NCBI RefSeq assembly: GCF_026210795.1
Contig: NC_089430.1
Span: 3,286,001-3,350,000 of the forward strand
DNA from: Rhizophagus irregularis
Taxonomy: Eukaryota
DNA: 64,000 nt
Reading direction: 5' to 3'
Below, in pieces: positions 1,171 through 47,299 of this stretch. Position numbers and translations under genes: made by a program. Position 1 is the stretch's first letter. The number at the start of each line of letters is the position of its first letter. A model generated the notes under the pieces. The model searched no databases. It worked only from the letters and a program-made list of their open reading frames with translations, and was not told the DNA's origin.

Positions 1171-1843
1171 TTAAAAAAAAAAATTTGTAATTAGTAATTA
1201 AAGTATAAAAAATTTCAAAATAAAATACACAATTACCTTTTAACTTGCTCTATTTATCGTATATAAAAAATTTTAAAAAACTTTTTTTAAGTTAAATAAA
1301 TTTCTAACAGTTAATAAAATTAAAAAAAAATGAGTTATTTTACTACAAAAAATTTTAAAATACTTTATTTAGTTATAATTTGAAGTTTTAAATTACTTAC
1401 TGTATTTAACATGCAAAATATCTCTCACTTTTCTTTATTTTTTACAAAAAAATACACCAACTTCAAGTTGAGATCCACCTCAAAAAACAAAAGTTATTTG
1501 AAAAATTTTTTCGATATACTCTTAAAAGCCGTTAATAAGTATTATTTTATATATTTAGTTTAAGGGGTTATATTATTTAAATGTTGTGTTACATTTGACC
1601 TGTATTTTTTCGATTTTAACCAAATTTAGGCTGGCATTATAAAATTGGTCAGAATTAAGAAGATTTTGGCCAGAATTAAGAATTCGAAGATCATCAATTT
1701 AACCAATTAGAATAATTTTAGCCGATTTTGATCTACATACATATACTATATATTTAATGACTATGTCGCACTATAATTTTTAATATGACTATCATAATAA
1801 AAAAAATTTGCCCCCTAATTTTATTACATGCGCAGTGATTGAT

Positions 1844-13531: not shown

Positions 13532-16500
13532 GGGCCGTGACATATATTACGTAATTTCTTAGGGGGTGGGGGGTAATTAGTTATATTAGTAGAAATCTTA
13601 CGTTACACTGATCTGTATATCATGTGATCTATGATCATAATCTGATTCGCCGTAAACATTTTTTTTTTAATTTTCAGAAAAAAATTTTTAATTAAATTAA
13701 ATTGTTTTGTATTTTTAATTTAATATACGTAATTTATATTGCACAAATTTTAGATATTATGTACTCAGTTAAATAATAGTGATAGTTTTATAGAAAATCT
13801 GCATTTAAGATATTCTTGCAGTATATTCCTTTTTTAATGTACCGCTATTGCAAATAAAACTGAAATATACTTTACATTTTACGTATTTTTTACTTTAATT
13901 TTTCAAAGTGAGACAAAATTTTCAATTTAATTATTCAAATATATATTCACTCTCCATCTGACATGTATTCTCTTAAACCAAGTTGAATTTCATTAGATGG
14001 GACAATATGTTCTGGTTGTTGTGAAGGTAAAAGAGAAAAATCATCAAGAATCATAGAATTTTGTTTAACCTGATCCTTTTTTGGGCGTCCTCGAGTAGCA
14101 GGATGTGCTGTGCGTTTGTGATTTGTCAAAAAGGCAAGAGTAGGAAAATATTTTTGACAGACGGAACAACAAAGACGTGAGTACATATTTTTATCAATAG
14201 ATGGACAATCAGCATCATAGCCTGGTATTTTCAAAAGATCACAATATTGAAGAATGTGAATAGGATTCATAAAATGTCCATCTCTAGCTTTGGTGACAGG
14301 TGGCAAGAAACCATTGTTGTTTTGTAGAAAGTCCATGGCTTCTTCAGCTCTAGGTGGTTCACAACAACTTGTATTTTTACAGCGCTTGATATCAACCGAA
14401 TAGGTGCACAAATTACAATGTGTTTCAATCCAAGACCATGGTACAAAACATTCCGAGAAGGTATTTGCATCCTCTTCATTTTTTTTTGAATTTTTTTCTC
14501 GTCTTTTTAATTCTTCTGCCCTTTCTTTATCTGTACCTTCAAACTTTATATTTTCAAATGGATTAGTAAGTGTATCTACATAATGGACATCAACTTTCTT
14601 TCCAAAAATCAAATCACGACTCCAAATATCACACAAGGTTTCTCCCGCATATCGAAAATTTTGAGTAGCCAATTCTGGATTTATTACTCTTCCTTGTGTA
14701 TTCAAATGTATACCAAAATGGTTGATTGGCAATGTCGACACCAGCAAGTTTTCCAGACAATGTCGCCATACCTCTTTCCACAGGATTATATTTTGATTGT
14801 CCTGGAGCATGCGTCCTTACACTTAAATAATCTAAATCAAATTTCTTGAAGAGATGACAATATGCTTTTATATTTTTTAAAAATCTAGGATTTTCATCTG
14901 GTCCTCCATCCACCAACAATATCCAAATAGGTCGAATATTTCCATTTATTTTTAACACATCATCGTATTTGGAATCCATGGTAAGACTATTAAGATCTTG
15001 CATATGAGTAACTGAAGACGTACCAAGAGACCATTGAGGACGTACAAAAATTGCCAGTTGTCCTGTTCGAAGTGCATCATTTGAATCACTTGGCTTTATC
15101 ATCAAATATACTGATGGAATTAATTTTTGCGCATATCCAGTAGGAAAATCATGATCTGCTACACATATGGGTTCATTAACTGATTGTAGTGTATGAAAAG
15201 TCCGGCCTACTGCAGGTATTCCTAAGCCTATTTTCGCCTTGTCATCTTGAGAAATAATAACACTCATATCAGCAAATAATGAAGCAAATTGTCTTGCACA
15301 TTTAACAGATGCAAGACAGTAATGTCCATCAGGATGTTCTCGCATTTCAGTACGTGAAACTCCAGCTACTGCAACCCATGCCGGATGATGATGTGCTCTT
15401 GCAGCAATTGAATTGGCTTGACGAGGCAATAGATAATTATTTAATGTGGTTCGTGCCATATATACATTGTATCTTTCTTCAAGATTTTTACGCAAGTTTT
15501 CAACTATACGCACTTTAACTACTTCCTTCCTTCGTTTTGCATCAGCTGATCCAAATTCAACTGAATTATGAATTTGATCATGCAAGTCTGGGTATTTAAA
15601 GAGAATTGGAGGCCGACCACATCCATCATATCGCACAACTTCCTGATCTTCAGTAAGCATTTTTAATTTTTTCGCTCTACAATCTTGAACATACTTTGCA
15701 TTTCTTTTTAACTTCATGATTTTGTCTTTATTAGAGCTAATTTCAGTTCGAAGATCATTTATTTTTATGTACATATCATTTCGGATTTGAGGGTCAGTTG
15801 TAATATTGCAAATTTGCTCTAATTCGGCTATCTTTCTTTCAATCATTTTGATCTCATCAGTTGCTCTCCTTTGGGCTGATGCATTTGGTGAAATTTCCAG
15901 TGTTGAGTCTATGGAATGAATGATAGGAGGGGGTGGAATGGGATCTTCTCTTGGTATAGAATGCTTTGATATTACTGTTCGTATATCATACAAGTTAAAG
16001 GGAATTGCCAGGTATTGTTTAATTATATCTTCAATTTCTGTAGAATTTTTGTTTTTAATTTTATTCCATTCTTGTGCTGCTTCACGGCAAATATCAGCAC
16101 GGTTTGGAGTATAATTTGCAGTTTTTACCATGATGCTATATACATAAGCATTGGAAAATTCTTGATATTTATTTATAGGTGAGCGATATATTGGTTTTTT
16201 ATTAAATTTAGGAGTTGAAAAAAACATTTGACGACTCATTTTCGATATTAATATGATGTATTAAATTTAAAAAAATATTAAAATATGAAATAAGCCAAGT
16301 GGAAGATAAAAGTTTCGCAGCGCGTCAAAGTATTTCGCAAAACTTGCAATGAAACCGTGATATAAAATGATCGGCATGTTACATTAAGGAGTTTAATAAT
16401 TGTAATTTTTCGAAATTTAAACATTTTGATAGAAAATAAATTTTGGATTGTTTTTAAATTCGCATGAAAATTTATTAATTTTTTTTCGAAATAAAGCCAT

Positions 16501-20782: not shown

Positions 20783-21996
20783 ATGGATATCTTGCCAGAA
20801 ATCGACTTAAGTGAGAACAGAATTACGAATAATACAATTGACAAACTAATCGAAACGCTTAAAACTACTAAGTTCAAGGTTAACCTTATTATACAAATTA
20901 AGATATATTTTAAATATAAATCTAAAGTTTTTATTTGAATTAGAAATTGAACCTCAAGAGTGTCTTCACTAAAAATAACAAACAAGAAACCTTTGAAATT
21001 TTGAGAAAAATATGCGAAGTAATTAAAAAAAGCACAAATTTGGAAGAACTGATAATTAGTAAAAATGCACTAGGAAAAAGCGGTGCAAAGGCGTTAAAAG
21101 TTTTTTTAACTAATAATGTTAATTTAAAGCACTTGATAATTGACGACGCGGGGTTAGGCGAAGGAGGTACAGTTATATTAGAATCGTTATTGAATTCGAG
21201 AAGGAAAACTTCTTATTTAGAAACATTTTCAATAAAAGAAAATGTTTTAGGAAAACAGTGTTCCAAACTGCTTTCTATGGTTCTACATAAACATAAAATT
21301 ACACTAACAAAAGTAATTTTGTCTCGAAACAGCTTTTATAACTCAGATCTTTGTCAAATAATAGAGTCTTTAAGTTTGTGTAAGAAGTTACAAATTATTA
21401 ATCTCGAAGATAATTTTTTCACTAAAAAAACATCAAAAATGCTTAGTCAATCTTTGGCTAACTGGCCGGATTTAAAACAACTAATAATTAATGATTGTTT
21501 GATATGTAAAAAAGGTGTTATATATATTTTAGAGGCATTATTAAAGGGTACCAATAAAAATATTGAATATCTGGGGTTTCAATATTGTAGTATTGATGAG
21601 AATGGGTTCTATACTTTGGCAAGTATAATTAAAAAAAGTCTAATGTTAAAAGTGGTGGAAATCAATGGGAATTATTCAATTAAAAAAAAATGTATGTCAA
21701 AGCTAAATTTGGTCTCTAAAAAAAATGGAACCTTGATAAATGGATTTGATGATTTAATTAACGAAGATGATGAGGGAGAAGAAAAGGAGGGAAAGGAAAA
21801 GGAATTGGACGATAATGAGGTAGAGGAAATTCATAATGACATGAAAGGGAAAGGTCATGATGGAAAGAAGAGAAAGGAGGAGGAGGGGCTGGACGTAGAG
21901 GAAGAGGAAGGAGACTATGATGAAAAGGAGGGAAAGGAGGAGGAGGGGTTGGACGTAGAGGAAGAGGAAGGAGACTATGATGGAAAGGAGGAGTGA
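20783..21996 (+). CDS. Divergent RanGAP (Rna1-like) leucine-rich-repeat protein with acidic tail; exons 20783-20878 and 20944-21996; 382 aa
   Basis: RI-type LRRs matching RanGAP (INLEDNFFT, WPDLKQLIINDCL, LGFQYCSID, VEINGN); D/E-rich tail; one GT-AG intron; no disruptions. Confidence 0.8.
21872..21992 (+). repeat. 60 bp tandem duplication in the acidic tail
   Basis: KEEEGLDVEEEEGDYD occurs twice. Confidence 0.9.
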
Positions 21997-24065: not shown

Positions 24066-24308
24066 TAAGGTTGCTTGTCTAAACCTATTCAAAATCCTAT
24101 GATTAGTTTCGTCAAAATTTTACTATAGATTTATTATAGTTTCGGCAGAGTTTTGGCAGTTTCAGCATTTATAATAAGTTTCGGCAGTTTCGCCTTTTCC
24201 AAAGTTTCACCAGTTTTTTAATATAACTTTAATATAGTTTCGGCAGAATTTCACTTTTCGGCGAAATGCCATCTTGCCAAATCCCCTAAATTTCGGCAAG
24301 CAACCTTA
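24066..24308. mobile_element. hAT MITE family A, copy 1
   Basis: TIR TAAGGTTGCTTG; TSD GTCATTGC/GTCATTGT. Confidence 0.85.
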
Positions 24309-25187: not shown

Positions 25188-25432
25188 TAAGATTGCTGGA
25201 GAAACTAAGGGGTTTTAGCAAGTTGGCGAAATGCCAAAATGGCGAAACTTTGCCAAAATTATATGAAAGTCTTATTAAAAAATTGGCAAAACTCTGGAGA
25301 AAAGCGAAACCTGATTAAACTTATTATAAATGCCGAAACTACTGAAACCTTGTTAAAACTATAATAAAACTATAGTAAAATTTTGGAGAAACTAATTGTA
25401 GAATTTTGGAGAGGTTTAGGCAAGCAACCTTA
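25188..25432. mobile_element. hAT MITE family A, copy 2
   Basis: Perfect TSD GTTCTGAG; TIR TAAG(A/G)TTGCT. Confidence 0.85.
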
Positions 25433-26022
25433 GTTCTGAGTCCGCTGCTCTTACTAAAATACCATTGAGTTTGTTCCAATATCTATTTATATCTTCTTGA
25501 AAATACTCTGTAAGATTGGCTTTATTCTTAATTACTTTTTGATCTAGCGAGTTTAGTTGATTTTTTATATTAAGCCAGAACTTATTACACTTTTCCATTT
25601 CAATGTCATCACAATCATACAAAACTATGGTGTGGGCATTACCAGCACAGGTCGAAATGCTAAAAATCGGCAAAAAAATGGCACGAAAAGCAGTGGCTAT
25701 TCTTGGCTATTCTTGGCTGTTTTTGGCTATTTGCGAATTAACCTATACTATTTGTAAATAGTTTATATAAATTTGCGAATAGTTTATGCAATTCTAGCCA
25801 TTTTTTTGCTTGTTTTTGGTCATTTAACGTGTGCAGTAGGTAATTTGTCATATATTGTATTTTTTTTATTATTTCTTATGAGGATCGAGGTATCTATCAT
25901 AGTTAATGTAACTATGTCATAATCATTATGTGTGATAAACATTGAGGGGATAATTGAAAAATTCATTAAATTATTACTGTGATTTTCTGATATCCAAATT
26001 TGGTCTATTCTCGTGCTTACAC

Positions 26023-26237: not shown

Positions 26238-26634
26238 ACTTACACCCTCTCTGTGATAAGTATTTTTTAGTACTTTTTTATTGAACTTTCTATATAAACC
26301 AATGTCTCAAGATCATTAAAAAATTTGGGTTTTGTAATATGTTATAGACTTGTGATGGGTACGATCAATATGACCATTTGAAATCAAGTTAAAATCTCCT
26401 ATTAATATATGTACTATATATATTTGATTTTTTCCTTATAGTTTCATCACACATTTCCTTTTTAAGTTGTTCCAAGGTGTCATGAAAAATTGTTTTATTT
26501 TGTGATGCTGCGTAAATAATTTATATGCAAAATAAAACATTTCTGAATAAAAAGTATGCTGAGACTAATTTCATCTGAATAATCCCTACATACTTTCTTA
26601 ACGGACTACATGAACAACCAGGTGTATCCAGATG

Positions 26635-26878
26635 TAAGGTTGCTTGCTGAAACCTAGGAGTTTAGGCAAAATGGCGTTTCACCAAAAAGCGAAATTCTGC
26701 TGAAACTATATTAAAGTTATATTAAAAAACTGGCAAAATTTTGGAGAAAGGCGAAACTGCTGAAACTTATTATAAATGTCGAAACTGCTGAAACTCTGCC
26801 GAAACTATAATAAATCTATAGTAAAATTTTGATAAAACTAATCGTAGGATTTTGAAGAAGTTTAGACAAGCAACCTTA
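26635..26878. mobile_element. hAT MITE family A, copy 3
   Basis: Perfect TSD TCCAGATG; TIR TAAGGTTGCTTG. Confidence 0.9.
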
Positions 26879-26985
26879 TCCAGATGTGTATACATTCGAA
26901 AAAAAGCTGCAGGTTGTTCCAGAAAATGAAAGACCCCTACCTGACTCCGTGATAAGAGGACAACCTGAAAGATTTGTACCTGAAC

Positions 26986-28100
26986 AGGACCCCGCTTACT
27001 TCTAATAGAGGTTACCTATAAGTCTAAGGTAAAAATTACATAGAAAAGTCAAAAAAAACTGGTTGGTAAAATTCTTTATAAATTAAAAAAAGTAAATGTA
27101 ATTCTGTGGTAAGTTTTTTTTATGTAACTGTTAAGTATATGGTAAAATTAAACAGGATTTTAAAATGTAACTTGTAATTATAAGGTAAAATTTATAATTT
27201 TGTAAAATTTATTACTAGTATATACTATTTTTAGCATAAAGTTTATTACACAGACATGTAAAATTTATTATACTATTTTTAGTTACAAGTTTATTACACA
27301 GACACATAAAATTTATTATACTATTTTTAGTACAAATTTATTACACAGACATGTAAAATTTTATTACATAAACACGTAAAATTTATTATACTATTTTTAG
27401 TTACAAGTTTATTACACAGATATGTAAAATTTTATTACACAAACACGTAAAATTTATTATATTATTTTTAGTTACAAGTTTATTACACAGACACATAAAA
27501 TTTCATTACACAAATACGTAAAATTTATTATATTATTTTTAGCATAAGTTTATTACATGGACACGTAAAATTTCATTATACAAATACAGACACATACAAA
27601 TTTATTACACAAACATGTAAAATTAAAAAAATAAATATGTAAAAAAGAATTTTTTATAGATATTCATGTAATATAAAAAATTATAAAATAAAGCAAAGAA
27701 CGGAAAAAATGGGTGGTTGGAGGTAGTAGGTGGGATAAATATAAGTTATTTTTTTTATTTTTTTTTTGTCAAAAAAATAATATATATATTTGTAACTATT
27801 GATCAATTTTGAACTTATTTTAAATAGGAACTTTTTTACATTTTTTTAAAATAATTATATCTAAAAATTAGGCCAATTTTAAAAGAAATAAAAAGTACCA
27901 AATGTATAAAATAAATTATGTTTTATACAATTTATAATTATAAATGTTACTGAACTTGTAAGGTAAAAATATATGTGATTTAAAAATATAACTGGAAAGG
28001 TGGTAAAATTACTTAGTAAAAGGAAAATTAGAGTAAGGTAAATTTACATATAAATCTTAAAAATTTTACGGTGACTTCTATTAGAAGTAAGCGAAATCAT
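26986..28100. mobile_element. AGG-terminus non-autonomous element with internal ~46 bp tandem repeats (27220-27620)
   Basis: TIR AGGACCCCGCTTACTTCTAATAGA (degenerate at the right end); TSD ACCTGAAC/ACCTGAGC. Confidence 0.75.
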
Positions 28101-28276
28101 ACCTGAGCGGATACTCTGACATCGTATCAGGAAAGGCTAAGACTAATACCTAGTTAAGTGAGAATGCTATCTAGATACTGAAGCTACTTGGGAACCCACT
28201 AGTCAATTAGAAGAAGATGTTTCTGACTTAGTTTGCAAGTTTTAGGAATAAAAAAAAATTGAAGAATTAAAAGGTC

Positions 28277-31223
28277 TTATTTTTTGTCTCCTCGATTCAC
28301 GTTAGGAACTATCAGAATAAAAATATTTTTCCTATTGCAAGTAAGGGCTATATACTCACGTGATTTATGGACATTGTGGTTGTAACGTTTTAGACACGTC
28401 TGGCTTAACCCTCGTCCTTCCTGTACTTTCTTTACTCAAAATCGTGAGGTTTTCAGTGATAGTACAATCAGGGGTAAGTTCGATAGACACACCCTTTATC
28501 ATGCCGAATGTTTTACCTGATCCTGAAGTACTGGATATATTATGTATAATACTCTTATCAACATTCAGCCCTAATTCCTCAACAGCTTTCCTCTAAATAA
28601 AAGACATGTTAGTACAAATGTCAGCTAAATATTAAATCGTTATCCCATTAACTTTCCTATCCAGTGCTAAAAGATCTTTAGTATTCTCCAAACGAGATAT
28701 GTCAATATCTATAGGATCATTCTCCCTGATATCCTCTTCTTATTCCTTCTCAGCTAAGTCCTAATCCTTTGGAATCTCTGTAATTTTACCAACAGACTTC
28801 AACTCCTCTTAAAGAATCCCACAGAGCAATTTTCTAAAATCTACAGATCTCAATAGATTCATCAAGTCATTCTTGGTAATGGCTTTTGCAGGTATAGATT
28901 TAGCAGTAATCTTTGCAGGAATCTTAACAGGAGTTGCTTTACCTTTTAAGGGTGCTCCAGGAAAGCTAACTGCTGTCTTACTTGAAGATAACTTAAGAAG
29001 TTTCGAGATACTCGAACCTACTTTTTTTTTGATCCAGAATGAACCATATAAATATCACCATCCCGTTCTACTAATTCCACCTTTTTACCAAGACTCATAA
29101 CATTATTATTAATGTCTATAGCATCGTCATTAAGATCAAGATTTTTCATTTGCTTGAAACAATTCCAAATCATCACATCTATCTTTAGTTTTTTGAAGTT
29201 TCTTCGCAAGTCTTTTAAACATTCCAAGTCCCATAATAAGATCAATATCATTAAGATAATCATGATCATTCCAAGCAGGAGCATCAGAATCATCACCAAC
29301 ATCATGATGTTCATTAGGTACTCCTTCATAATATTCATAATCTTTTTGTTGAATGACACGTTTTTGTGGCTTTGGTTGAACAGGTTGAACTGGTGGTTTA
29401 CGAACTGGTGGCTGTCTCAAATTCTTCTGCAACTCCCAAATTTGCGCTTAAAATGTTTCCATCTGTTTCTTAAGCATTTTATCCATTTCTTCTTGAGTAA
29501 TGCTATCTGAGTAACTGGTTTTAAGATACTGTAGATAACTGGTTCTTGTGAAGTATTAGGAGTTTTAAGTACTTGTCAATGAGCATTTTGCTCAGTCTGA
29601 CCACGCCACATTTCTCCTTTCCTTTTTTTAACTCTTTCTAATCATTCTACCAACTCATCTACAGGAGTATCTACACCGATTCTTTCAGCTTCTACCAAAT
29701 TATCCCTATTCAGTTCACAGAAGAACTGGTTAGTTATAACTTCAGAAGTAAAGTTTAAGACCTGTATACCATTCCTAATTTCATTATAAAACTCATGAAT
29801 AGGTCAACTACCCTGTTCAATACTACTAAATCATAAACGCAATTTTGCTAGAGTAATATCTACCTATTTTAACAATAGTATGATAAGGTCAAAAAGGTAT
29901 AATGTAAGGATTTCCAGCACCAGCACCACTAACATTCATAATAATACCTGCAGCAGTAACAAAATTAAGATTAGCATCAGTAAGTTCCATACCCGCTCGA
30001 TCTCTCCATATATCATTATTAGCCCTATTTATCTCATAGTCAGGCCATATTTCGGTCATGAAATTACCTGCATTATTGTGACCTTGTTGATATTGAGTAG
30101 CTACTGAATTTGCAACCAAAACATGATTGGGAGCAGCGGCAGTAACGACTGCATTGTTAAGAGCTAATGCTCAAAAAGCGGCTTTATTGCAATTAGTAAT
30201 AACACGTACAAGTATATTTCGAAGTCTAACATTTTTTCCTAAAATATTGTTATCATACCATTCTGCAGCATGACCTTTCAAACAAGTTCGAAGAATACTT
30301 AAAACTTTCTCGTAACTAGCTAGAGGGCCACCAGATGCATCAGCAGGATTGATATTAAAACTGTGAAGGTACTCCTTATATAGCTTAATAAATTGATTAA
30401 AATTTTCATCTTCACGTCCTTCAAAAATAGGAAGTCCTAATGCAACAGTAGCCATATCACAGAATGTTCTGGATTGTTGGGAGAAGGCGGAGGAAAGTTC
30501 AATTGTCTAATTCGAAACTATTGTACCTGAATACACAGAGCAGCTATCTGTTGAAAAAGTCGATTTCTAAGACGTCCCAATGTCTGGATCCCAAAATGCA
30601 TTTGATTATTAGCATGTACTAATTGTGCATCAACCTGTCCAAGTTGCGCATTAGCTAATACAAGTTATCTTCCAGTTCAAGTAACTCTCATCTGCCAATG
30701 ATTCAGAAGAATATTACCATGATTGATTGCATTTTGAACCTCATTACAATCTTTTACTGCTTGAGTATAATCTGCTTGTATTACATTACGTTCATGTCAT
30801 GCCTGATTACGCTCACCTATAGCCTATTTATGAAGCTCTACCATAGTATCATAATCTCTTTGTAGGTTATGATTTCCTTCTGTAAAATTATCATTAATTG
30901 TACGTATGTCACGTAATTATTGTAAACGTTTCATCAAATGCATTTATCCTATCATATGTGTAAGCTAACAAACTTTTTGTAGTATCAAGTTCTTCATGTT
31001 TTGCTTTACAGTATTGCATTAATATATTAATAATATGTTTGATTTGATTATTCGCCTCGTGTATCTTTGAATCAACAGATAAATGACCCCTGGTAGTCAA
31101 TAAATTTGCATGAGCCTTAAGTATTCTAATTAACTCATCATCATCTTCTTCATTGGCCAAGTGTGCAAGAGGTAGTCCAGTAGGTTCTGAAGGAGAATAA
31201 ATTGCAATTGGTGATGTTGACAT
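28277..31223 (-). pseudogene. Coiled-coil region, retroelement Gag-like protein and retropepsin-like aspartic protease; no RT
   Basis: LPIFEGREDENFNQFI...LRTCLKGHAAEWY; IEQG..PIHEFY..NQFF; protease-like YLADICTNMSFI..KAVEELGL; ends with TAA at 28277-28279; many stops and frameshifts. Confidence 0.7.
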
Positions 31224-31255
31224 TATATTTAAACTAAGTTAGAACAAAATTCAAA

Positions 31256-32843
31256 TGGATCTCTATATATACAATTTGGATGAGTATACGATCGACTCAA
31301 GACAGAGTAATGAGTATGCTACAACATGGCTATTCTCATTAGCCATAACAGGTAGCGTAAAACCATTATGATCATTAACTTGCTAATGGGAGATAAGAAA
31401 GCAAAAAAGCTATTAGCAGCAGAAAGCGGATGGTAATTGGTACGTACGTATTATGTGATGCAGTACTTTTAGTTGGCAGATACCAAGACCTTGCACAGGT
31501 CGAAAAGTAAAAAATCAGGCACTAATCGGTCACCAATCAGGTACCTGATTGGTGACCGATTGGTAACTGATTGATGCCTGATTTTTTACTTTTCGATCTG
31601 TTTTGCCTACTATTAAAATAGGTCACCCTGTGGCCTAAGGTAAAGTTTACATATAAATCACTTTGAAGATCTTACTATAAAAGGAAATTTTATGTTATAT
31701 TGTTATAATTTTTTTTCTTTTTAGTTAATTAACCAATAAAATTTAAGCAAATCCTAAGGTAAGGTTTTATATGAAAGTGAAATTTCTACTAGTAACATAT
31801 CTTAGTAGTAGGCGGAGACCTCAGATACCTTGAAAAACTAAAGTGGGCAGTCGTACGTGATTTTTTCGAAGAAGAAGAAATCTTATTTACCGCAGTAATC
31901 CATAGTGAAATTCCAGAGATTAACTCTTTTGATTCATTCTAAGCTACTGTAATTATATTCAAGGATCTAACAGATACTTCCAAAAAAACTCAGAACCTTA
32001 TCACTAGTTACTTTACACATGGACGACACAAAAATATTTTATGTATCTATATAACCCAAAAATTCTTCACTATTCCCAAGGCTATTCGTGAGAATGTGAA
32101 TTATATCTCTCTACATGGAAATTATGGAAGCTTTATAAATACTAAGAGAATCATCTGTCAATATACAGAAGAATCTGAGTCATTAGCTCCAGTAATTGAT
32201 GACTTTACTCTACAACATGAATTTGTAGTGTTCGATCTTAAATGATCTAAAAGTGATCTATTATCTAGATGGGATATTAGTCTCAGTTCGATAACAGAGC
32301 AATCTCAGTTTGATCTCAGTTTGAACCCAATTCAATCTCAATTCAATTTCAGTTTGATCCAAGTTTGAACCCAGTTCAATCTGAGTTTAAACCCAGTCTG
32401 ATTGCAGTTCGATCAAAGTTTAATCCATATGGACAGAAAGCTGTAGCTGAAGCAAAAAAAGGGTGGATACTTGATTGAATTTACTCAGGTATTTCTATTC
32501 TCTAAAGAGTGTAAGCATTTACTTGTACCTGGTGTCTTAGCCAAGAATGCAGATATCTGAATTAAGTATGTCAGCTAGTATGTCTTTTGGAAAGCTTATA
32601 GACTCTCTGGTAAGATCTTAGGAGAAGACTTCCAAAACTTCTTTATAGTGGTAGAACTGCGAAGACCAAAACTTCAAAACCTGAAACCATAAAAGAGTTA
32701 TTCTCCCGATATGAAGCTCTGAAGTCTAGTCACTCTTTAAATAGCAAAAAATAATAGAAGGTATTGAAGTTCTTCTACAGATCTTTTTCAAGGGTAATAT
32801 GGATTGTAATGCACTACGAGTAAGGATTAATAGTATCTTGTGA
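31256..32843 (+). pseudogene. A32-like (FtsK-HerA) virion packaging ATPase with C-terminal extension
   Basis: Eroded Walker A (LAITGS...IINLL), Walker B VIIFKDL, then [33 protein letters not shown]; frame restored after removing 31485-31821. Confidence 0.8.
31485..31821. mobile_element. AGG-terminus MITE with a nested palindromic MITE (~31490-31601)
   Basis: Perfect TSD CAGATACC; removal gives VGRYLEKLKW. Confidence 0.75.
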
Positions 32844-32877
32844 AAATTTCACGTAATTCGTCTACAGTAGCTCTAAG

Positions 32878-33256
32878 TAGAGTTCCAATCCATCATCCGA
32901 CGGATGATCAATCTCTTCTCATTTATTTTTGGAAAGAGACATTTATGTTTCATAATTTATAATTTAGGAACTGCATTCAATGTAAGGTGATCAGACTATG
33001 CATTATTTAATTAATTGAACATAAAATAAATGGGGTGAAATCTTAGTCGGATTGAAATTTTCATCCGTCGGATGATATTTTAATCTGTTCCTAATTTTTC
33101 CTCACTTTCATTTTTGAAAAAAAAGTTTATTTATTAAATTATATACTGTATTATGCTCTTAGGATATCCTTAAAAAAAAATGCTCTTTTATATTAATTAA
33201 ATGAGCGTACAACTGTCAAAATGTGATTATCCGTCGGATGACGGATTGGAACTCTA
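32878..33256. mobile_element. hAT MITE
   Basis: TIR TAGAGTTCCAATCC; perfect TSD GCTCTAAG. Confidence 0.9.
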
Positions 33257-33548
33257 GCTCTAAGAATCATACTAGCACTTTTTTTACGGCCCTCAAAGTC
33301 AATTCGTAACATCTTAGCTTTTAACATTATAGCTTTTAAAGCTCAAAAAGCAAAGTTCTTAGTCATCAGATTACTCATATGACTCATATGACTCGTATAA
33401 TTCTTATAGAATGTAGTGAATAGCTCATCAATACCATCTGGATATGTATCACATAAGAACTGATATAAGGCAATTTCTCCGCTATCACATCCAATGGCTA
33501 CAAGCTGTTCAAGTAGCCATTTTCTAATATTCTCATATAGCTTTCCAT

Positions 33549-33879
33549 CCCTATAAAAAAAATTTTACTTAAAATATATTTAAAATATATTTAATTTTCT
33601 TATTTTATACTTAAAATATACTAAAAATTGAATTTTCACAAAATTTGAATTTAAATTGTATTTAATATATACTTAAAATATATTTAATTTACATTTAAAT
33701 TTTGCCCATTTCAGTATATTTTAAGGATGTTTAAAATAAGAATATTTTAAGTATATTATTATATACTTAAATTATACTTAAATGATATTTAATTTTTACC
33801 TATTTCAGTATATTTTAAGTATAAAATAAAATTTCAAGTTTATTTTAAGTATATTTTAGCAAAAATATTTTTTATAGGA
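33549..33879. mobile_element. CMC/CACTA-type MITE
   Basis: CCCTATAAAAAA terminus; 3 bp TSD CAT; removal restores LMDGK. Confidence 0.75.
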
Positions 33880-35211
33880 CATCCATAAGTTTTATATTTA
33901 GTCTCTATACGAATAATTGTATAAAGTCCATATTACTTTTCTGATGGATAATCTGAATTAACTTATTCTTGACAAGTCTTAAGGCTTGCAGAGGATCACT
34001 CTCATCACTAATCTTCTTTATAATCTGTCTATATAATACGCTGGATAATCCTCTATGTACTGCTTTTGCAGAGATTACTTCACAATTCTGATACTGGTTT
34101 ATTATGATTGACATGGCTATTTTTCTTTATGTAAAAAAGAATTATTCAAAATTACATAACTATTCAGAGCAGTCCTTACACAACCTATTCGTTAAGTCAC
34201 TCAGATTTGTAAGCATAAGATATTCCTTGCACAACTCGATATTAAGCTCTGCAAATTTTCGGGTATGGCTTCTAACGTACGTACGATTGTTAACACTGAG
34301 GAAGGCGTCCTGTTAGTCATATCCTGCTCTAGGATAAGATCATTATACAGTATAACGCTGCATAAAACACCTGGTATAATTTAAGAAACCCGCTTAGATT
34401 GTATAGTATCCAGGGAGGTGTTATGTGGGAAGGAGGGTACTATAATAGGGGATACGTTGAAAGGAGGGTATTAATCATGTGATAATTAATATACTGGTAA
34501 TCTTAAAAAGTAATGAAAAATTCAATAAAACTTTCCGCAAATATAAAAATAATTTAATTTATTGCAAAATGATGATTGTTATAGAATTTTAACGATTTAC
34601 TAGACAAATCTTTTTATCAGATGACCTGCAAGGGGTAGCACAATTTTGAAAAAAGCGCAATAAAATGATCATGATATTCAATCACGTCAGTGTTCTTCGC
34701 ATTTTTACAAATTTTAATTTCTTTATTTCATTAATAAAATGGTTCGTCCTCAAGCAAATAAAAGTAGTAACTGTCTAACAATAACAGAGAAAAAAAGGAG
34801 ACACTGGAACATATGCAAAAAAGTTGCAATTATTATGTATTATGAAAATGGCCATAGTAAAAATAAGACAGCAGTAAAGTTTAATATTCAAACAAACCAA
34901 CTTCGCAACTAGATATCTAAAAAACCTCAGTTACTCAAAGTATAACTAGATGTTAAACGTTTAAATACAGAAGCAAAACCAAAATACCCTACTTTAGAAA
35001 CTGCTTTACTTATTTGGGTAAAAGAAAAAAAAATCAAAATGCAGTTATGCGAAGCATGATTTAAATGAAGGCCAAAGCACTTGTACAACAACGCCAATGG
35101 TAAGTTACATGTTCTGGTGTTGGATCTTTTGCTTTAGTAATAAGTGGCTAAATGGTTTTATACGACGAAAAAATTCAAGTAATCGCTGCTGTACTACTAT
35201 TGTGCTATGTT

Positions 35212-36876
35212 AGGATCCCGAAAAATACATATAAAAATCAGAGATGATCGGCAAAATTTTGCCTTAAAATAAGCAAATATTTTTACTAAGATCAATACAC
35301 AAAGTTGATTTCTGACTTTATAATTTATATTAGAATAAGCAAATTTTTTTTATGACATTTGTATATTAAAAAAATGAAATCATGGCTTTTTTTTTAATTT
35401 AATTAGTTGTATTTAGAATATACTTCCAGTATAATTGATTTTCAATTGCTAGCATAATGCCAAATTGCAAAAATTAATTTGTACTGACGTATTTATTTAT
35501 ACTACTATATTTAATTATTTGATAATTCAAGTATTAACACTAAAACAAAAAGATTGTTCATTATTTTTTTATAAATTATAACAAAAACTTAGAATATAAT
35601 TTATAAAATCATTTCTAAAAGAAGATCCTATTTCTAAAGAAAAAAAATATTAATACTACTTTCACATATAAAACAAAAAAAATTCCACCCTATTCTCAAC
35701 TTATTAAAAATTTCAGTTTAGTTTTAATCTAAAAACCATTTCTAATAGAAAAAACAATAGAAATATTAATAATACTTCTAAAATAAACAAAATAAAGCTA
35801 AAAAATTCTTTACTTACAGTGAGCATTGGAGTTCCAGTCTGAATTCCAAGTTCCTAAGAAAAAAGTAAAAGGAATATTAGTATGGTAATATTTCCAAAAA
35901 AATTGACTATACTTTTCTCTTAACTCATATTTTTCCAAGATATTGGTATCTAAAATAATAAATTTTAAATTTAAGAAGTTGCTTTTAAAGAAAAATAATA
36001 AAAAGGAATATTAATAACATTCTAAACCAAATATTTTTTTTTAATAAAATGGCTTGTTGTTAAAAAAATATAACAATAAAGGCCAAAAAAAATTTTTATT
36101 GAATAAAACGGTTTGTTACAAACCAAAAAAAATATTTTATTTTTTTCTTTCAATAAAACGGTCTGTTAAAAGTCAAAAAATTGAAAAAAATTATCTATTA
36201 TCAATCAGATTAGCCGTCAATTACGTATTTTCAAAAATTTATGTATTATACTATACGTAATGCTGCTTATTAGGGAATTCCAAAGCATTATGCTGCTAAT
36301 TAGTAGAAAATCGCTGGAATTCCAAGCATTATACTACTAATTAGTAGAAAATTGCTGGAATTCCAAGGCGTTATGCTGCTAATTAATAGAAAATTGCTGA
36401 AATTTCAAGGCGTTATGCTGCTAATTAGTAGAAAATTGCTGGAATTCCAAGGCGTTATGCTGCTAATTAGTAGAAGACTGCTGGAATTATATATATATAT
36501 TTTTTTTATTAAAAAATACCGTTGACTACGCAAATTAAAATATATGACATATATAAAAATGATTGTTATTACGCAAACTATATATATAACCTTTTAAAAA
36601 ATCTCAAAATCTACAGTCAAACCTTGATATAGCGAACCCTTGATATAGTGAATTTTTCAGACAACTATAATAAATTTCCCCTTGCTATAACGAATTAACC
36701 AATCAAATCTCTTAAAATCTTCACTATAGCCCTATAGCGAAGTTGGCAGGCTCAACCTGAGGTTCGTTATAACAAGGGTTGACTGTATACAAATAAAATT
36801 TTATGACTTTTGGAAATTTTACTAATATGGTTAAGCAAACTTACACGTGACCTTTATATGTATTTTTCGGGGTCCT
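35212..36876. mobile_element. AGG-terminus non-autonomous element with ~42 bp tandem repeats (36260-36490)
   Basis: TIR AGGA(T/C)CCCGAAAAATACATATAAA; TSD GCTATGTT/ACTATGTT. Confidence 0.8.
36614..36785. mobile_element. Tc1/mariner-type MITE
   Basis: TA|CAGTCAA...TTGACTG|TA; inverted copy at 46067-46238. Confidence 0.85.
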
Positions 36877-38433
36877 ACTATGTTTACCTGATGATCTAGT
36901 TGAAAAACAACAAGAATTTTTATCATACATTGTATATCGGCGTATTCAGTATGATTATCCTTTAGCATATATCAGTAACATGAATGTAGTATTCTGCACA
37001 AATCAATTCGTAACACAATGTGATCCTGATTGCTCCTGAATAATAAAAATGTATTTTGCAAATAGCTTTTGATCTACTCTGCACAACAGGACATGAAAAA
37101 GCTAACTTTACAGTAGTTTTAATGTGTATGGCAAATGGAAGAAAACTTCCTCCACTTATAATTTTCAAACTTAAAAATGTTCCTTAAGAAAATTTTTCTC
37201 CAGAAGTAATTATTCGTGCAAATCAAAAGAGTTGGATGAATGAAAATAAGATGCTTTATTGAATCAAAAATATTTGGACTAAACGTGAAAGAGTTTTTAA
37301 TCTACAGTCATTATTAGTTTTGGATTCGTTTTTGTCACATAGTAAATTCTGTTAAAAGGCGTTTTGGTAAAAAAAATACCAATATTGCTGTAATTCCTGG
37401 AAGATTAACATCCCACCTACAACTCTTAGATGTTTCAGTGAATAAATCATTTAAGACCAAGGTAACAATTATTACTCTGATCCCTTTAACAATATCATTT
37501 AATTCTATTTTGCTTTTTTGATTTCTAGTTATAATAAAAAAAAAATAAAAAATATTAAAATTTGTTATTATTATCCTATAGATGCGACAAAACTATAATG
37601 AATGGATGGCAGAAGCTGTTAAAGAGTTAACACCAGCTGGTAATTTAAAAAAACCCTCTTACGAAATCGTAGCAAAGTGGGTTAGAGATTCATGGAATGC
37701 AGTTGATGTTAATTTAATTCAGAAATCTTTTAAATGCTGTGGCATCTCTAATAAGCATGATGGAACTGAAGATGACTGGATTTTTAACTATAATCGACTT
37801 GGACAAGGAAATTAGCCAGAGGATGAAGTAGAAATGCCATCAGATAAACATGGCAATGATGAGGAAGGGAAAACAGATGGTGAATATGTTGGTAAGGAGA
37901 GAGAAACGGATGAAAAATATATTAATGAGGAAGAGGAAGAAGATGATGAGGAAGAATACGAAGGAAAAAAGGATGATGAGGAAGAATATGAAAGGAAGAA
38001 GATGAAGAGGGAGAATATGAAGGAGAAGAGGATGGATATAATGATGAATATCATAGTCATTACAAACAAGGAACAAATTACGTTAACATATGGAATGATT
38101 AGCGGGTAGCTTTGAATGTGTAACAATGCTTATTATTCGTTAATAAAGCTTATTAGTTTTCAAACTGAAGTTTTTTTTTACGTTTATAAGTTAATTAATA
38201 AATTAATAAAGTTAATATATTATTATTTATTATATTTAATTTATTTATTATAATATATATAAATGATTACTTTACAAAATCAATAATTGATTAATACCAG
38301 GTACTATTCAAAATCAGATATTGATTAGTACTGGGGTACTTTTCAAAAATACTAGAATGTAAACTTTAAGTAATACCCCAGTACTAATTAAGGGGAGTAT
38401 TATTCCAGGAGGTACTATATGTAGTGCTGTATG

Positions 38434-39146
38434 TAGGGATGGTTAGGTTGGTCCTGGTTCGGTTCTGGTCCTAGGACCTATAAGTCCTATTGAACGGACC
38501 TGCAGACCAGGTCCTGTTAGGACCAGTCCTGAACCTGGTCCCTGGACCTGGTCCTGATTAAGTTATTTATAGATTTTATGAATTTAGTAATAACTAAATA
38601 TAAAAAAAGAGAGTTGCAATATTGGGATTCACTTTTTTATATTGATTTTATATAAAAAAAGTGAGTTGCGATATCGCGATTCACTTTTTTATATTGATTT
38701 TATATAAAAAAGTGAGTTGCGGTATCGCGATTCACTTTTTTATATTGATTTTATATAAAAAAAGTGAGTTGCGGTATCACGATTCACTTTTTTATATTGA
38801 TTTTATATAAAAAAAGTGAGTTGCGGTATCGCGATTCACCTTTTTATATGATTTAATATAAAAATGTGAATTGCAATATCGCAACTCATTTTTTATATGA
38901 TTTTATTAATATAAAAATTGTATTGCAATATTGCAATGCACTTTTTTATAATTTATAATTACTTAAAATCAAATTTACAGCAAATTATACATATATAATT
39001 TAAACATATGGATCTCTTATAACCTTATTGGCTAGGACTTTTTAGGACCTGGTCCGCTTCTAGTCCAAAATTTGGACCTAAAGATCTGCAGACCAGGTCT
39101 TAAGACCAAGTCTTTAGGTCCAGGACCTAGGACTTTACCATCTCTA
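38434..39146. mobile_element. hAT non-autonomous element with ~51 bp palindromic tandem repeats
   Basis: TIR TAG(G/A)GATGGT; perfect TSD GCTGTATG. Confidence 0.9.
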
Positions 39147-39620
39147 GCTGTATGGTACTCATCCATGATTCTATTCGCAACTTTTCGCTGAACATATACT
39201 ACATGTCTTTCTAATGATATCAAGCAACATCTCTTAAGGTCATCTCTGATATCTTGTATCTCATTGAAAGTTAATCGCTGACTACTATGCTGTGTCTCCT
39301 TCCTCCAGTCAATAATAATATTTATAAGAGTGACCTCTCGATAATGGACAAAGTAATAGTTATAGTTGTTTCTAAAATTCAATTGCATAATAGTGCAAAA
39401 TTGTGAATATCTCAGGATCTATTGATCAGATTTTGATGATCTTACTACCATTCGATTCGTCTCATCGAGACGAATCTAATGATATGTGTTTCATTTCTAT
39501 AGCACTGATATTGACGGAGTTTTTAATGAATTTTGGTGTTGAAGCACGATCTAGTGATTGGATTTGAATGAATTTACCACTATTCGATTCGTCATGACAA
39601 GACGATTCTAAAGGCGGTAA

Positions 39621-42434: not shown

Positions 42435-43826
42435 TAGTGCTTCTAACAGATCGGTTCAAACCGGATTTAGCTTAAATCTGATCTGATCTGATTTTTATTT
42501 TAATAGATCTGATCTGATTTGAATTTGATCAGATCTGGTTCAATTTAATCCGAATCTGGTTCGGATCCATTTGAATCTGATTTGAATCTGATCCAAATTT
42601 GGTCCTTGTACTAAAAAAAGGAAAGGGAACGTTAATTACGTTCCTTAAAGTAAAAAAAATAAAAATAAAAATAAAAAAACGAACTTACCATAGTTCGTTC
42701 TTTTAAATCCTGGTCATTCAGCTTCGTCTCGCGTCTAGGTTTCCTAAAAATAAAAGAAAGGGAACGTTAATTACGTTCCCCTAAGTAAAAATAAAAAAAA
42801 AACCTAAAAAAAAGAAACGAACTTACCATAGTTCGTTCTTTTTTTTAAATCCTGGTTGTTAACGTTTTAATGACTTCATTCGTCCAGGTTTCCTAAAAAA
42901 AAGGGAACGTTAATTACGTTCCTTTAAGTAAAAATAAAAAAAAAACTTAAAAAAGAAATGAACTTACTATAGTTCGTTCTTTTTTTAAATCCTGGTCGTT
43001 AATGGCTTCATCTACGTCTAGGTTACCTAAAAAAAAGGAACGTTAATTACATTCCCTTAAGTAAAAATAAAAAAAAAACTTAAAAAAAGAAATGAACTTA
43101 CCATAGTTCGTTCTTTTTTTTAAATCCCGGTCGTTAATCGGCCCATTCACTCCAGGCTTTTCTAAAAGAAAAAAAAAAAAAAAAAAAAAAGCGAACGTTA
43201 ATTACGTTCCTTAACGTAAAAATAAAAAAAAAACTTAAAAAAAGAAATGAACTTACCATAGTTCGTTCTTTTTTTAAATCCTGGTCGTTAACGACTTCGT
43301 TCACGTCCAGGTTTCCTAAAAAAGAAAGAGAACGTTAATTACGTTCCCTTAAATAAAAATTAAAAAAAAACCTTAAAAAAAAGAACGAACTCACCATAGG
43401 TTCTTAAACGTTCCCTTCTTAAATCCTGGTCGTTAGGCTATCTTGTTACGTCGGAAGGCTTCCTAATAAAAAAGAAGGGAACCGTTAATTAAGTTCCCTC
43501 AAGTAAAAATAACAAAAAAAAAGAAACGAACTTACCTAGTTCGTTCTTTTAAATCTTGGTCGTTCGGCGTCCGTTTGTCCAGGAAAGGGTTTTTAAAAAA
43601 ATGAATTTTTTTTTTTTAAAAAAATTTAAAAAAAAATCTGATCTGAAATCTGTTCAGATCGGATCGGATTTTCTCATGTTTGATCTGATCTGATCTGAAT
43701 CTGATCGGATCAGATTTTTTTTTAAATCCGATCTGATCTATGGATCAAAATTTTGAAAACTGAACCGATCTGACTCAGATCAAATTTGCGAATCCCAGAT
43801 CAGATCGGATTTTTTTCGGAGCACTA
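42435..43826 (-). mobile_element. hAT non-autonomous element with GATCT-rich subtermini and seven ~140 bp internal units
   Basis: TAGTGCT termini; TSD AATCAAGT/GATCGAGT. Confidence 0.75.
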
Positions 43827-45966: not shown

Positions 45967-47299
45967 ATGTCTAAAAAGGATATTGAATATACTTTAATGT
46001 TATTAACAATACAGGATTTAAATGACTCTTTTGACTCTTTTAATGATAATGAATTAAATAATAATACAGTCAACCCTTGTTATAACAAACCCTAGGTTCT
46101 AGACCTCAACTTCGCTATAGGGCTATAGTGAAGATTTTAAGAGATTTGATTGGTTAATTCGTTATAACAAGGGGAAATTTATTATAGTTGTCTGAAAAAT
46201 TCACTATATCAAGGGTTTGTTATATCAAGGTTTGACTGTAATAATTTAATAAAAAAAATACTTCTTGCTTTATCCTCTTTACATTATCTTGTTCCTCAAA
46301 ACTATATTCCTAAGTCTCAACATTGGTATTATAAAATCTTACCATTATATGATGATATACGATTTAAAAAAGTTTTACGAATGGAAAGATAACAGTTTAA
46401 CAAGCTAATACAAGTTTTACAGAACGATACAGTTTTTCAAAATAAAGGAAATAAGCCATAGGTACCAGTTGAATTTTAATTAGTAATATTTCTTAGGCGT
46501 TTAAGTTCTAAAGATGATATTTTAAGTATTTGTTCTCAATTTGAAATATGTGAAGGTACTGTAATTCTTTATATTAACTGTGTAATAAAGGCTATTAGAA
46601 ATAAAAAATTGGAGTTTGTTCAATTGCCTAAGAATAATAATAATCGTGCTATTGTTTATGCAGGATTTTAAGCTATTGGAGAGTTTCAAAATATTATTGG
46701 AGCAATAGATGGTACTCATTTTATTTTAAATGAAGCACCTGCACAAGATCTAACAGCACTTTTTACAAGAAAAAAAAGATACGTAATTCATTGTTAAGGA
46801 ATTGTTGATTTTAAAGGAATTTTTATTAATTATATAATAGGATGGCCGGGATCAGTGCATGATGCACGAGCCTATGCTAATTCTGATTTTTTCTTAATAA
46901 AGCAAAATATATTGAAGGAGATGATTATGTGTTAGGTGATTCAGCATATCCGATCTCTTCCTTTTTAATTACTCCTTTTAAAAATCCATTTAATCATCGA
47001 CAATGTCAATTTAACTTTATTTATTCAAAACATAGAGTTGTTGTAGAATATGCCTTTGGTAAATTAAAGGCTAAATTCAAAGCATTAAAAGAATTATCTG
47101 TAAAAGATATAAAGACAGCAATTAAATTAGCAGATTGTGCTATATTATTGTATAACTTTCTTGAAATTTGTAGGAAAATTTGGGAGATTAATGATCAAAA
47201 TGATGATGATGATAATTATAATGATCAATATGATTGGGAAGATAAAAGTGATGAAATTTAAAATTAGAAGGCAAACTTAAAAGAAAAAGAATGTCATAT
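45967..47299 (+). pseudogene. PIF/Harbinger (DDE_Tnp_4, HARBI1-like) transposase; element left end at 45824
   Basis: IIGAIDGTH, GWPGSVHDAR, LGDSAYP, HRVVVEYAFGKLKAKF; several stops. Confidence 0.85.
46067..46238. mobile_element. Tc1/mariner-type MITE inside the Harbinger transposase
   Basis: TA TSD; same family as 36614-36785. Confidence 0.85.

What the first reader, a model, noticed from the sequence alone, without database searches (positions are those of the whole stretch)
26560..39620. Decayed chimeric virus-like element: Polinton-type integrase/chromodomain and A32 packaging ATPase plus retroviral-type Gag-protease, no RT
Seen: after removing seven inserts by their TSDs, the region collapses to a dense, intronless cassette. 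Order: integrase C-terminus/chromodomain (+), Gag-aspartic protease (-), A32-like ATPase (+), unknown ORFs (-). The Gag and ATPase start codons are only 32 bp apart (31223/31256), and both convergent pairs overlap at their 3' ends (28277-28305; 32827-32843). No LTRs, RT or RNase H follow the protease. Established: Polintons/Mavericks pair RVE integrase and packaging ATPase with jelly-roll capsids and an adenovirus-type cysteine protease, whereas Gag plus retropepsin belong to LTR retroelements. Inference: a DNA-virus-like element may have replaced its capsid/maturation module with a retroelement Gag-PR module. I do not recognise this as a standard element type.
Basis: partly seen in the sequence, partly recalled or inferred. 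Interest (0 to 1): 0.9.

Follow-up and report, generated by a model that had tools for sequence, protein, structure and literature searches.

The report
Fungal Polinton with retroviral-type capsid
This is a broken copy of a mobile DNA element of mycorrhizal fungi whose intact relatives join DNA-virus genes (integrase, DNA polymerase, packaging ATPase) to a retrovirus-type capsid and protease gene with no reverse transcriptase, so it likely packs DNA into a retroviral-type shell in place of the usual DNA-virus capsid.

Summary
The cassette is real and is not a chance nesting. The window holds a decayed copy; intact relatives in soil metagenomes keep the same order: rve-chromodomain integrase > < retropepsin < Gag < coiled-coil | A32 ATPase >. 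All 13 of 13 loci long enough to show it carry the Gag (about 8 independent lineages). The Gag of an intact relative folds confidently as a two-domain retroviral/Ty3-type capsid protein with a ~95-residue insertion that matched no solved fold. A run of A's ends 8 of 8 Gag ORFs (0 of 121 other ORFs), with the protease in the -1 frame. Two overlapping contigs span one element between inverted repeats (~12.7 kb): it adds a protein-primed PolB and a D5 helicase, and has no RT and no ORF left for a jelly-roll major capsid. These are probably the known Glomus Polintons, tabulated in 2014 as lacking a capsid; a 2021 figure legend lists Gag/retropepsin labels, without discussion in the text I read. 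Particles and ATPase-driven packaging are inferred, not shown. Reader corrections: 31223 starts the coiled-coil ORF, not Gag (30455); one overlap and the right boundary are unsupported.

The parts
26585..26635 (+). Integrase C-terminal region, first surviving piece (catalytic core absent from the window)
   Evidence: tblastn to L011/L012/L022 integrase, 71% over 17 aa; no rve-core hit in the window
26636..26877 (.). Insert 1: short inverted-repeat element, 10-bp TSD
   Evidence: other copies at 24066-24308 and 25244-25433; joint skipping it in run X9
26878..26983 (+). Integrase C-terminal region, second piece
   Evidence: 62-71% identical to residues 282-314 of intact integrases L012, L017
26984..28099 (.). 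Insert 2: 7-bp TSD, inner inverted repeats 26995-28091
   Evidence: joint 26978>28102 in run X5
28099..28251 (+). Chromodomain ending the integrase (several premature stops)
   Evidence: PF00385 E=8.2e-10; 52-60% to intact integrases
28277..29030 (-). Retropepsin ORF in the -1 frame of Gag: basic linker, then protease domain (catalytic Asp codon near 28620); broken by stops and a frameshift
   Evidence: matches L009/L012/L017/L018 proteases, which hit gag-asp_proteas/Asp_protease_2 and DDI1
29018..29030 (-). A9 run directly before the Gag stop codon: likely -1 slip site for Gag-protease fusion
   Evidence: 8 of 8 intact Gag ORFs versus 0 of 121 other ORFs
29018..30455 (-). Gag ORF: capsid N-domain, ~95-aa insertion, capsid C-domain, tail; broken by stops and frameshifts
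   Evidence: fold of intact relative L018; window copy groups with P0096/P0097/P0099/L001
30437..31223 (-). Coiled-coil ORF with proline-rich end overlapping the Gag start; fused in frame to Gag in other lineages
   Evidence: 78-83% to L001:379-1167; junction conserved; coiled-coil Pfam hits in relatives; fused forms L040, P0179, P0195
31224..31254 (.). 31-nt head-to-head gap, likely a bidirectional promoter
   Evidence: 31-78 nt in 22 of 22 relatives examined
31255..32843 (+). A32/FtsK-type ATPase with a helical C-terminal extension; Walker A damaged in this copy; interrupted by insert 3
   Evidence: PF04665; motifs intact in relatives
31485..31821 (.). Insert 3: 8-bp TSD, contains a palindromic repeat at 31495-31601
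   Evidence: joint 31476>31822 in 4 of 4 runs
32827..34100 (-). Conserved ~195-aa ORF of unknown function (cluster C3), interrupted by inserts 4 (32878-33256, 8-bp TSD) and 5 (33549-33879)
   Evidence: profile hits at 33259-33597 and 33842-34099; joint 32877>33273
34163..34300 (-). Remnant of a ~165-aa ORF (cluster C6; relatives carry a 2-cysteine adaptor motif)
   Evidence: PF08793 E=1.4e-4 in L025
34400..39146 (.). Later insertions, not part of the element: a large nested transposon remnant (Tc1/pogo-like by eye, not tested) and an 8-bp-TSD element at 38434-39146

Best explanation
This is a decayed copy of a Glomeromycota Polinton-type DNA element that carries a retroviral-type Gag and protease where Polintons carry jelly-roll capsid and cysteine-protease genes, and it likely uses that Gag as its capsid, with the A32 ATPase likely packaging the DNA genome. 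Shown: conserved gene order; retroviral capsid fold (predicted, high confidence); protease in the -1 frame behind an A-run; intact ATPase, integrase, protease and polymerase motifs in relatives; inverted repeats; no RT. Inferred cycle: the ~12-13 kb element is excised and copied by protein-primed PolB with the D5 helicase; a back-to-back promoter drives coiled-coil/Gag/protease one way and the ATPase the other; slippage on the A-run gives a minority Gag-protease that matures the shell; the ATPase loads DNA; the chromodomain integrase reinserts it. The insertion in the capsid protein would lie on the outer surface (by its position between the third and fourth N-domain helices) and varies between lineages.
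For: Synteny: capsid profile hit upstream of the ATPase in 13 of 13 family-1 loci that reach past the coiled-coil ORF (about 8 lineages), protease in 6 of 6 that reach past Gag, integrase tail to tail in L011, L012, L017, L022. A second lineage (ATPase ~40% identical, sister clade 98/96) has a different gene order yet also a Gag-like ORF with zinc knuckle (L040; Atlas 0.94 to Retrotrans_gag clusters). Fold: pLDDT 90.5; the top 37 of 50 rows shown are all retroviral/Ty3/Arc/PNMA/Copia capsids, PEG10 Z 10.0 rmsd 2.3 over 83 residues, HIV CA Z 9.4 rmsd 6.7 over 142 residues spanning both domains. A-run 8 of 8 versus 0 of 121. L017 1-123 is the exact inverse of L031 9718-9840 and the two contigs overlap at 99%; their 11 genes leave no unassigned ORF over 200 aa. 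ATPase dN/dS 0.07-0.37, mostly 0.1-0.2; capsid 0.16-0.50 in 7 of 8 pairs; protease 0.28-0.29. In other Polintons the ATPase tends to go when the capsid goes (PMC4028283 passage), yet here it is the best-conserved gene. Gag and ATPase stay linked while the polymerase is exchanged (624-aa type in L012/L023/L029/L031, 1176-aa type in L019/L020).
Against: No particle, packaged DNA or expression was observed. Four scans of IMG/VR viral contigs (ATPase, Gag, pPolB, integrase) found no member. No retroviral-type capsid is known to me to use a packaging ATPase or to have a portal vertex (recalled). The full gene inventory rests on one element inferred from two contigs of different data sets; its outer ends and TSD were not seen. 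No stable RNA structure follows the A-run (z -1.1 to +1.1), and some protease ORFs have their own AUG. One capsid pair gave dN/dS 2.0 on 14 differences. Small ORFs (C3, 197 aa) were not folded, so a divergent minor capsid protein is not excluded. The family-2 Gag did not match the family-1 profile (probability 1.5%) and its protease had no Pfam hit.
Confidence: 0.6

Rival explanations
1. Gag does form a shell around the element's DNA or integration complex, but by co-assembly as in retroelements; the ATPase has another job (DNA handling, segregation along the hypha) and is not a packaging motor.
For: Retroviral capsids assemble around their cargo (established); several Gags of the family keep a CCHC knuckle (L040, P0179); family-1 ATPases carry an extra C-terminal domain absent in family 2.
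Against: Family-1 Gags lack the knuckle; the ATPase keeps Walker A/B and the GRH motif in all full-length rows and shares a 31-78-nt head-to-head gap with the Gag unit.
Confidence: 0.2
2. The element is a capsid-less self-synthesizing transposon; Gag-protease is useful cargo (for example a decoy or restriction factor against retroelements or sibling elements) and packages nothing.
For: Glomus Polintons are listed without capsid, one of them also without ATPase; no hit among viral contigs; small stand-alone capsid-C-domain ORFs occur in L017 and L007.
Against: A decoy needs neither a full two-domain capsid, nor a stoichiometry-setting slip site, nor an active-site protease; it would not explain strong conservation of the packaging ATPase.
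Confidence: 0.12
3. A non-autonomous retro-like element: Gag packages element RNA and borrows RT from LTR retrotransposons.
For: Gag-protease with a -1 slip site and an rve integrase are retroelement parts.
Against: Genes lie on both strands, ends are inverted repeats, and the element encodes its own DNA polymerase and helicase.
Confidence: 0.05
4. Chance nesting: an LTR retrotransposon fragment inserted into a decayed Polinton at this locus.
For: The window is full of nested inserts.
Against: Same order in about 8 diverged lineages with open frames and conserved junctions; no LTR or TSD at the module's edges; no RT domain in 24 of 24 long Gag-family proteins scanned.
Confidence: 0.03

Closest known systems
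Glomus/Rhizophagus Polintons P_Gi1.1, P_Gi1.2, Polinton-1_GI (PMC4028283 Table S1, supplement rows)
   Same: Same host group, 11-12 kb, no jelly-roll major capsid, penton or cysteine protease; ATPase present in P_Gi1.2. Mavericks are reported as expanded in Glomerales (PMC11952901, PMC8647823 passages).
   Different: No Gag or retropepsin column in the table rows seen; treated as having lost the capsid module. Identity with this family is likely but was not tested by sequence.
Element(s) labelled Matrix/Capsid/NC/Pro in Fig. 5 of Starrett et al. 2021 (PMC8502044, legend only)
   Same: Adintovirus-like PolB element annotated with similarity to retroviral Gag and retropepsin; Rhizophagus PolB is named in the Fig. 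3 legend; L019/L020 carry a long PolB with an endonuclease VII domain.
   Different: I could not see the figure or which organism the label belongs to; section 3.4 does not discuss it. No synteny, fold, frameshift or replacement argument in the text read.
Canonical Polintons/Mavericks and adintoviruses (Polintoviricetes)
   Same: rve integrase with chromodomain, A32 ATPase, pPolB, inverted repeats; the next-nearest ATPases in my scan sit beside an rve integrase/Bro-N (L052) or a PLA2 gene (L050).
   Different: Jelly-roll capsids and Ulp1-type protease not found; Gag and retropepsin in their place.
Mavirus-type virophages
   Same: Short pPolB plus separate superfamily-3 helicase plus rve integrase (PMC11161782 passages).
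   Different: Mavirus has jelly-roll capsids and a cysteine protease. Loss of the exonuclease here is inferred from length only.
Ty3/Gypsy elements and domesticated Gags (PEG10, Arc, PNMA2)
   Same: Two-domain capsid fold, retropepsin, -1 frame arrangement.
   Different: No RT, RNase H or LTR; integrase on the opposite strand; ~95-aa capsid insertion without a structural match.
Bidnaviruses; caulimoviruses
   Same: Precedent for a polinton pPolB paired with an unrelated capsid (PMC11161782 passages); caulimoviruses hold dsDNA in a Gag-like shell (recalled; their coat proteins appear as weak rows).
   Different: Bidnaviruses use a parvovirus capsid; caulimoviruses make their DNA by reverse transcription and have no packaging ATPase (recalled).

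Membership tests
Polinton/Maverick (Polintoviricetes) | rve integrase | tested here: met
   PF00665 + PF00385 in L012, L017, with D, D, E residues visible; only the C-terminal part survives in the window
Polinton/Maverick (Polintoviricetes) | protein-primed PolB | tested here: met
   In relatives: PF03175 E=1.8e-6, above cut-off, in L031; motifs A, B, C conserved in 4 of 4. Absent from the window copy. No PDB sequence match.
Polinton/Maverick (Polintoviricetes) | A32/FtsK packaging ATPase | tested here: met
   PF04665; motifs
Polinton/Maverick (Polintoviricetes) | terminal inverted repeats | tested here: met
   123 bp, 100%, L017 left end versus L031 9718-9840; two contigs, one element; not present in the window
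Polinton/Maverick (Polintoviricetes) | 6-bp target-site duplication | not testable with these tools
   No contig holds both outer ends
Polinton/Maverick (Polintoviricetes) | [quoted passage not shown] | tested here: not met
   In L017+L031 all six ORFs over 300 aa are assigned (integrase, Gag, coiled-coil, ATPase, pPolB, D5 helicase). One element only.
Polinton/Maverick (Polintoviricetes) | single jelly-roll penton and Ulp1-type cysteine protease | tested here: inconclusive
   No Pfam hit, but the 197-aa C3 ORF is unassigned and was not folded
Ty3/Gypsy LTR retrotransposon | Gag capsid and retropepsin | tested here: met
Ty3/Gypsy LTR retrotransposon | RT and RNase H downstream of the protease | tested here: not met
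   Protease stop lies 25-49 nt from the convergent integrase; no RT in L017+L031 ORFs or in 24 of 24 long Gag-family proteins
Ty3/Gypsy LTR retrotransposon | long terminal direct repeats | tested here: not met
   No long direct repeat in L012 or L040; ends of L017+L031 are inverted

The most novel reading that the evidence does not exclude
An overlooked lineage of integrating dsDNA viruses of arbuscular mycorrhizal fungi in which a Polinton replicon and its packaging motor were joined to a retroviral capsid and protease: DNA-polymerase-replicated genomes pumped by an A32 ATPase into a Gag shell, a virion chimera across the Varidnaviria/Ortervirales divide, with a swappable surface domain of a fold not yet solved.
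Probability: 0.45. Interest if true: 0.95.

Novelty: new variant of a known kind. Interest (0 to 1): 0.8.

Why it matters
It gives a concrete answer to why the abundant Glomerales Mavericks have a packaging ATPase but no recognisable capsid. If Gag is the capsid, a retroviral-type shell can carry a genome that never passes through RNA, and an A32 motor can work with a non-jelly-roll shell; both are directly testable with six small genes from intact copies. It would also be a candidate vehicle for moving DNA between nuclei and hyphae of a major plant symbiont. The window's copy itself is dead; the value lies in the family.

Tried and rejected
No whole genome was held, so copies could not be counted or their ends read. 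IMG/VR scans with ATPase, Gag, pPolB and integrase gave no member; the two ATPase hits L056/L057 are phage helicases by their neighbours. Prokaryote genome scan: 0 loci. Sequencing-run search: no RNA holder listed, which says nothing on expression. The capsid insertion alone folded well (pLDDT 85.7) but matched nothing at Z>=2 among 48,161 chains and nothing in BFVD; that does not prove a new fold. Foldseek of the capsid against PDB and BFVD gave no row at E<=0.001, though the best rows were capsids. Atlas search of the coiled-coil protein gave only unnamed clusters. A stimulatory hairpin after the A-run was looked for and not found. An intron at the coiled-coil/Gag junction, as in some gene models (P0097, P0159), was considered less likely because the residues such models add before the Gag ATG are not conserved; not excluded without RNA. 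Earlier-findings look-ups returned nothing. Nine literature searches found no paper describing this architecture beyond the legend noted; subscription papers (Kapitonov and Jurka 2006, Pritham 2007, the 2024 MMBR review) and Repbase entries were not readable, the PMC8502044 supplement was cut, and bioRxiv supplements are closed, so any of these may already note it.
Full report
Host and setting. The window is AT-rich, transposon-laden fungal DNA. The ATPase fragment is 76-80% identical to dozens of Rhizophagus irregularis proteins (91 hits), and the Gag N-terminus is 99% identical over 89% of the query to an R. irregularis gene model (P0093), so the host is very likely R. irregularis.

What is in the window. 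Six-frame reading, Pfam and tblastn with intact relatives give, left to right: integrase C-terminus and chromodomain (+, 26585-28251, two inserts), protease (-, 28277-29030), Gag (-, 29018-30455), a coiled-coil ORF (-, 30437-31223), a 31-nt gap, A32 ATPase (+, 31255-32843, one insert), a ~195-aa unknown ORF (-, two inserts) and a remnant of a further ORF to ~34300. Every gene is broken. Six of seven inserts have TSDs, and contigs from other copies skip the first four. The integrase core, polymerase and helicase are absent.

Intact relatives. A scan of JGI metagenomes with an ATPase alignment returned 55 loci; I analysed L001-L046 as the family and used L047-L055 (24-33% identity) as outgroups. 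Of the family-1 loci, 13 reach past the coiled-coil ORF and 13 of 13 carry the capsid ORF in the same place and strand; 6 of 6 that reach past Gag carry the protease; L011, L012, L017 and L022 show the convergent integrase. These are not 13 independent cases: L011/L012/L014/L022, L017/L031 and L019/L028 are near-identical groups, leaving about 8 lineages. The other loci are too short upstream to tell. A second lineage (L032, L034, L036, L038-L041, L043-L045; ATPase ~40% identical; sister to family 1) orders the genes differently; only L040 is long enough, and it has a coiled-coil/Gag fusion with a zinc knuckle followed by a protease-like ORF. Its Gag did not match the family-1 profile but scored 0.94 to Retrotrans_gag clusters in the Atlas; its protease is assigned by motif only (no Pfam hit). 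Named Gag relatives come from Rhizophagus, Entrophospora and Diversispora.

A whole element. L017 and L031 overlap over ~5.1 kb at 99% and L017 1-123 is the exact inverse of L031 9718-9840. Together they span at least 12.7 kb between inverted repeats and hold 11 genes: a 106-aa ORF resembling the capsid C-domain, DUF5679, integrase (364 aa, rve + chromo), protease, Gag (438), coiled-coil (441), ATPase (409), a 178-aa ORF, C3 (197), pPolB (624) and a D5-type helicase (780). There is no RT and no unassigned ORF large enough for a double jelly-roll capsid. This is one element from two data sets; outer ends and TSD were not seen. L012, L023 and L029 carry the same pPolB; L019/L020 carry a 1176-aa PolB with an endonuclease VII domain instead. 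The short pPolB keeps polymerase motifs A, B and C and an N-terminal Cys/His pair that I recognise from memory as OTU-like.

The Gag is a capsid protein. Residues 1-265 of the L018 Gag folded at pLDDT 90.5 from 52 sequences. Against 48,161 PDB representatives, the top 37 of the 50 rows shown are retroviral, Ty3, Copia, Arc, PEG10 or PNMA capsids (PEG10 C-domain Z 10.0, rmsd 2.3, 83 aligned; HIV CA Z 9.4, rmsd 6.7, 142 aligned across both domains), and unrelated rows start at Z 4.5. Sequence profiles agree weakly (PEG10 E=0.009; Retrotrans_gag in 12 of 24 long family proteins at E<=0.01). Residues ~70-168 form an insertion that folds by itself (pLDDT 85.7) and matched nothing. By position it corresponds to the outward-facing loop region of retroviral CA (inference from known structures).

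Expression signals. 8 of 8 intact Gag ORFs, and the window, end in a run of 8-10 A's just before the stop, with the protease frame at -1 and open from just upstream of the run; 0 of 121 other ORFs of 150 aa or more end so; 22 of 24 full-length Gag proteins end in KK[K/N/T] against 0 of 16 ATPases. No stable structure follows the run, so ribosomal or transcriptional slippage on poly(A) is the likelier route; separate initiation is not excluded. The coiled-coil ORF overlaps the Gag ATG in 13 of 13 loci and is fused in frame in other lineages. The two transcription units start 31-78 nt apart in 22 of 22 loci.

Selection and exchange. For pairs of at least 55% protein identity, dN/dS is 0.07-0.37 for the ATPase core, 0.16-0.50 for the capsid in 7 of 8 pairs (2.0 in one close pair with 14 differences), 0.28-0.29 for the protease, 0.08-0.16 for the integrase. 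In three runs laid on the window, depth over the capsid-coding part is 24-39, 24 and 255-283, against roughly 450-25,000 over the flanking cassette genes (the tool warns that depth is not copy number). P0159 is 65-74% identical to the window in coiled-coil and protease but has a capsid of the L017 type with no match in the insertion. Capsid domains therefore appear to be exchanged on a shared backbone.

How it likely works. The simplest reading is a Polinton whose jelly-roll capsid and cysteine protease were replaced, function for function, by Gag and retropepsin, while the ATPase stayed as packaging motor. The argument is retention: in other Polintons loss of capsid goes with loss of ATPase and protease (PMC4028283), whereas here the ATPase is the most conserved gene and is tied to Gag across lineages that swapped polymerases. 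Against it: no particles, no hit among viral contigs, no known portal in Gag shells, and no test of binding. I put motor-driven packaging at 0.6, co-assembly with another role for the ATPase at 0.2, cargo without packaging at 0.12, helper-RT dependence at 0.05 and chance nesting at 0.03.

Prior art (what I saw). PMC4028283: passages and supplement rows listing P_Gi1.1, P_Gi1.2 and Polinton-1_GI (11-12 kb) without major capsid, penton or protease, ATPase present in one. PMC8502044 and its preprint: passages, section 3.4 and part of the supplement; the Fig. [quoted passage not shown] PMC11952901 and PMC8647823: passages on Maverick expansion in Glomerales. PMC10640383: passages reporting no major capsid genes found in five R. 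irregularis strains with the profiles used. bioRxiv 10.64898/2026.06.19.733378: passages noting Glomus/Rhizophagus A32 ATPases related to Maverick-Polintons, with no occurrence of 'gag'. PMC11161782, PMC6431247, PMC11071296, PMC5294986, PMC13533422 and bioRxiv 2025.04.19.649669: passages only, no description of this architecture. So the element family is probably known and the Gag similarity may have been drawn once, but I found no analysis of it as a conserved capsid replacement.

Verdict. Observation largely right, interpretation supported. It works like a Polinton in replication and integration and fails the Polinton capsid test; it is not an LTR retrotransposon. New variant of a known kind, interest 0.8.

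Noticed in passing
window 29389-30339; P0159: The capsid-coding part of this copy is at single-copy depth while the flanking cassette genes are at far higher depth, and a close relative carries a different capsid type: capsid domains seem to be swapped between subfamilies.
   Followed up: partly
L017:125-445; L007:2505-2879: Small ORFs holding a lone capsid C-domain (behind a Cys-rich start in L017, behind an F-box in L007); possible copy-number or restriction factors.
   Followed up: partly
L012:6266-6790, L029:2125-2841, L025:2166-2660: Accessory genes: F-box proteins and a protein with a 2-cysteine adaptor motif (PF08793), a domain of large DNA viruses.
   Followed up: partly
L020:2151-5681: A 1176-aa PolB with an endonuclease VII domain replaces the 624-aa pPolB/D5 pair in one lineage.
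   Followed up: partly
window 20944-21996 (+): A 350-codon stop-free frame similar to Ran GTPase-activating protein (E=6.5e-26 to S. pombe Rna1) with an acidic tail; unusually long without an intron for this genome.
   Followed up: partly
window 13947-16260 (-): Nearly intact transposase with a weak ISAZ013-type DDE hit; Zator-like by recall.
   Followed up: no
window 1839-2814, 46887-47261, 57506-57952: Plavaka transposase fragment, Harbinger-type DDE fragment and a CTP synthase gene.
   Followed up: no
window 39035-39418 (-): 128-codon open frame with no match in relatives or Pfam; not shown to belong to the element.
   Followed up: partly
window 499-1194; 42630-43560; 38600-38900: Tandem repeat arrays and repeated palindromic units in non-coding DNA.
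   Followed up: no
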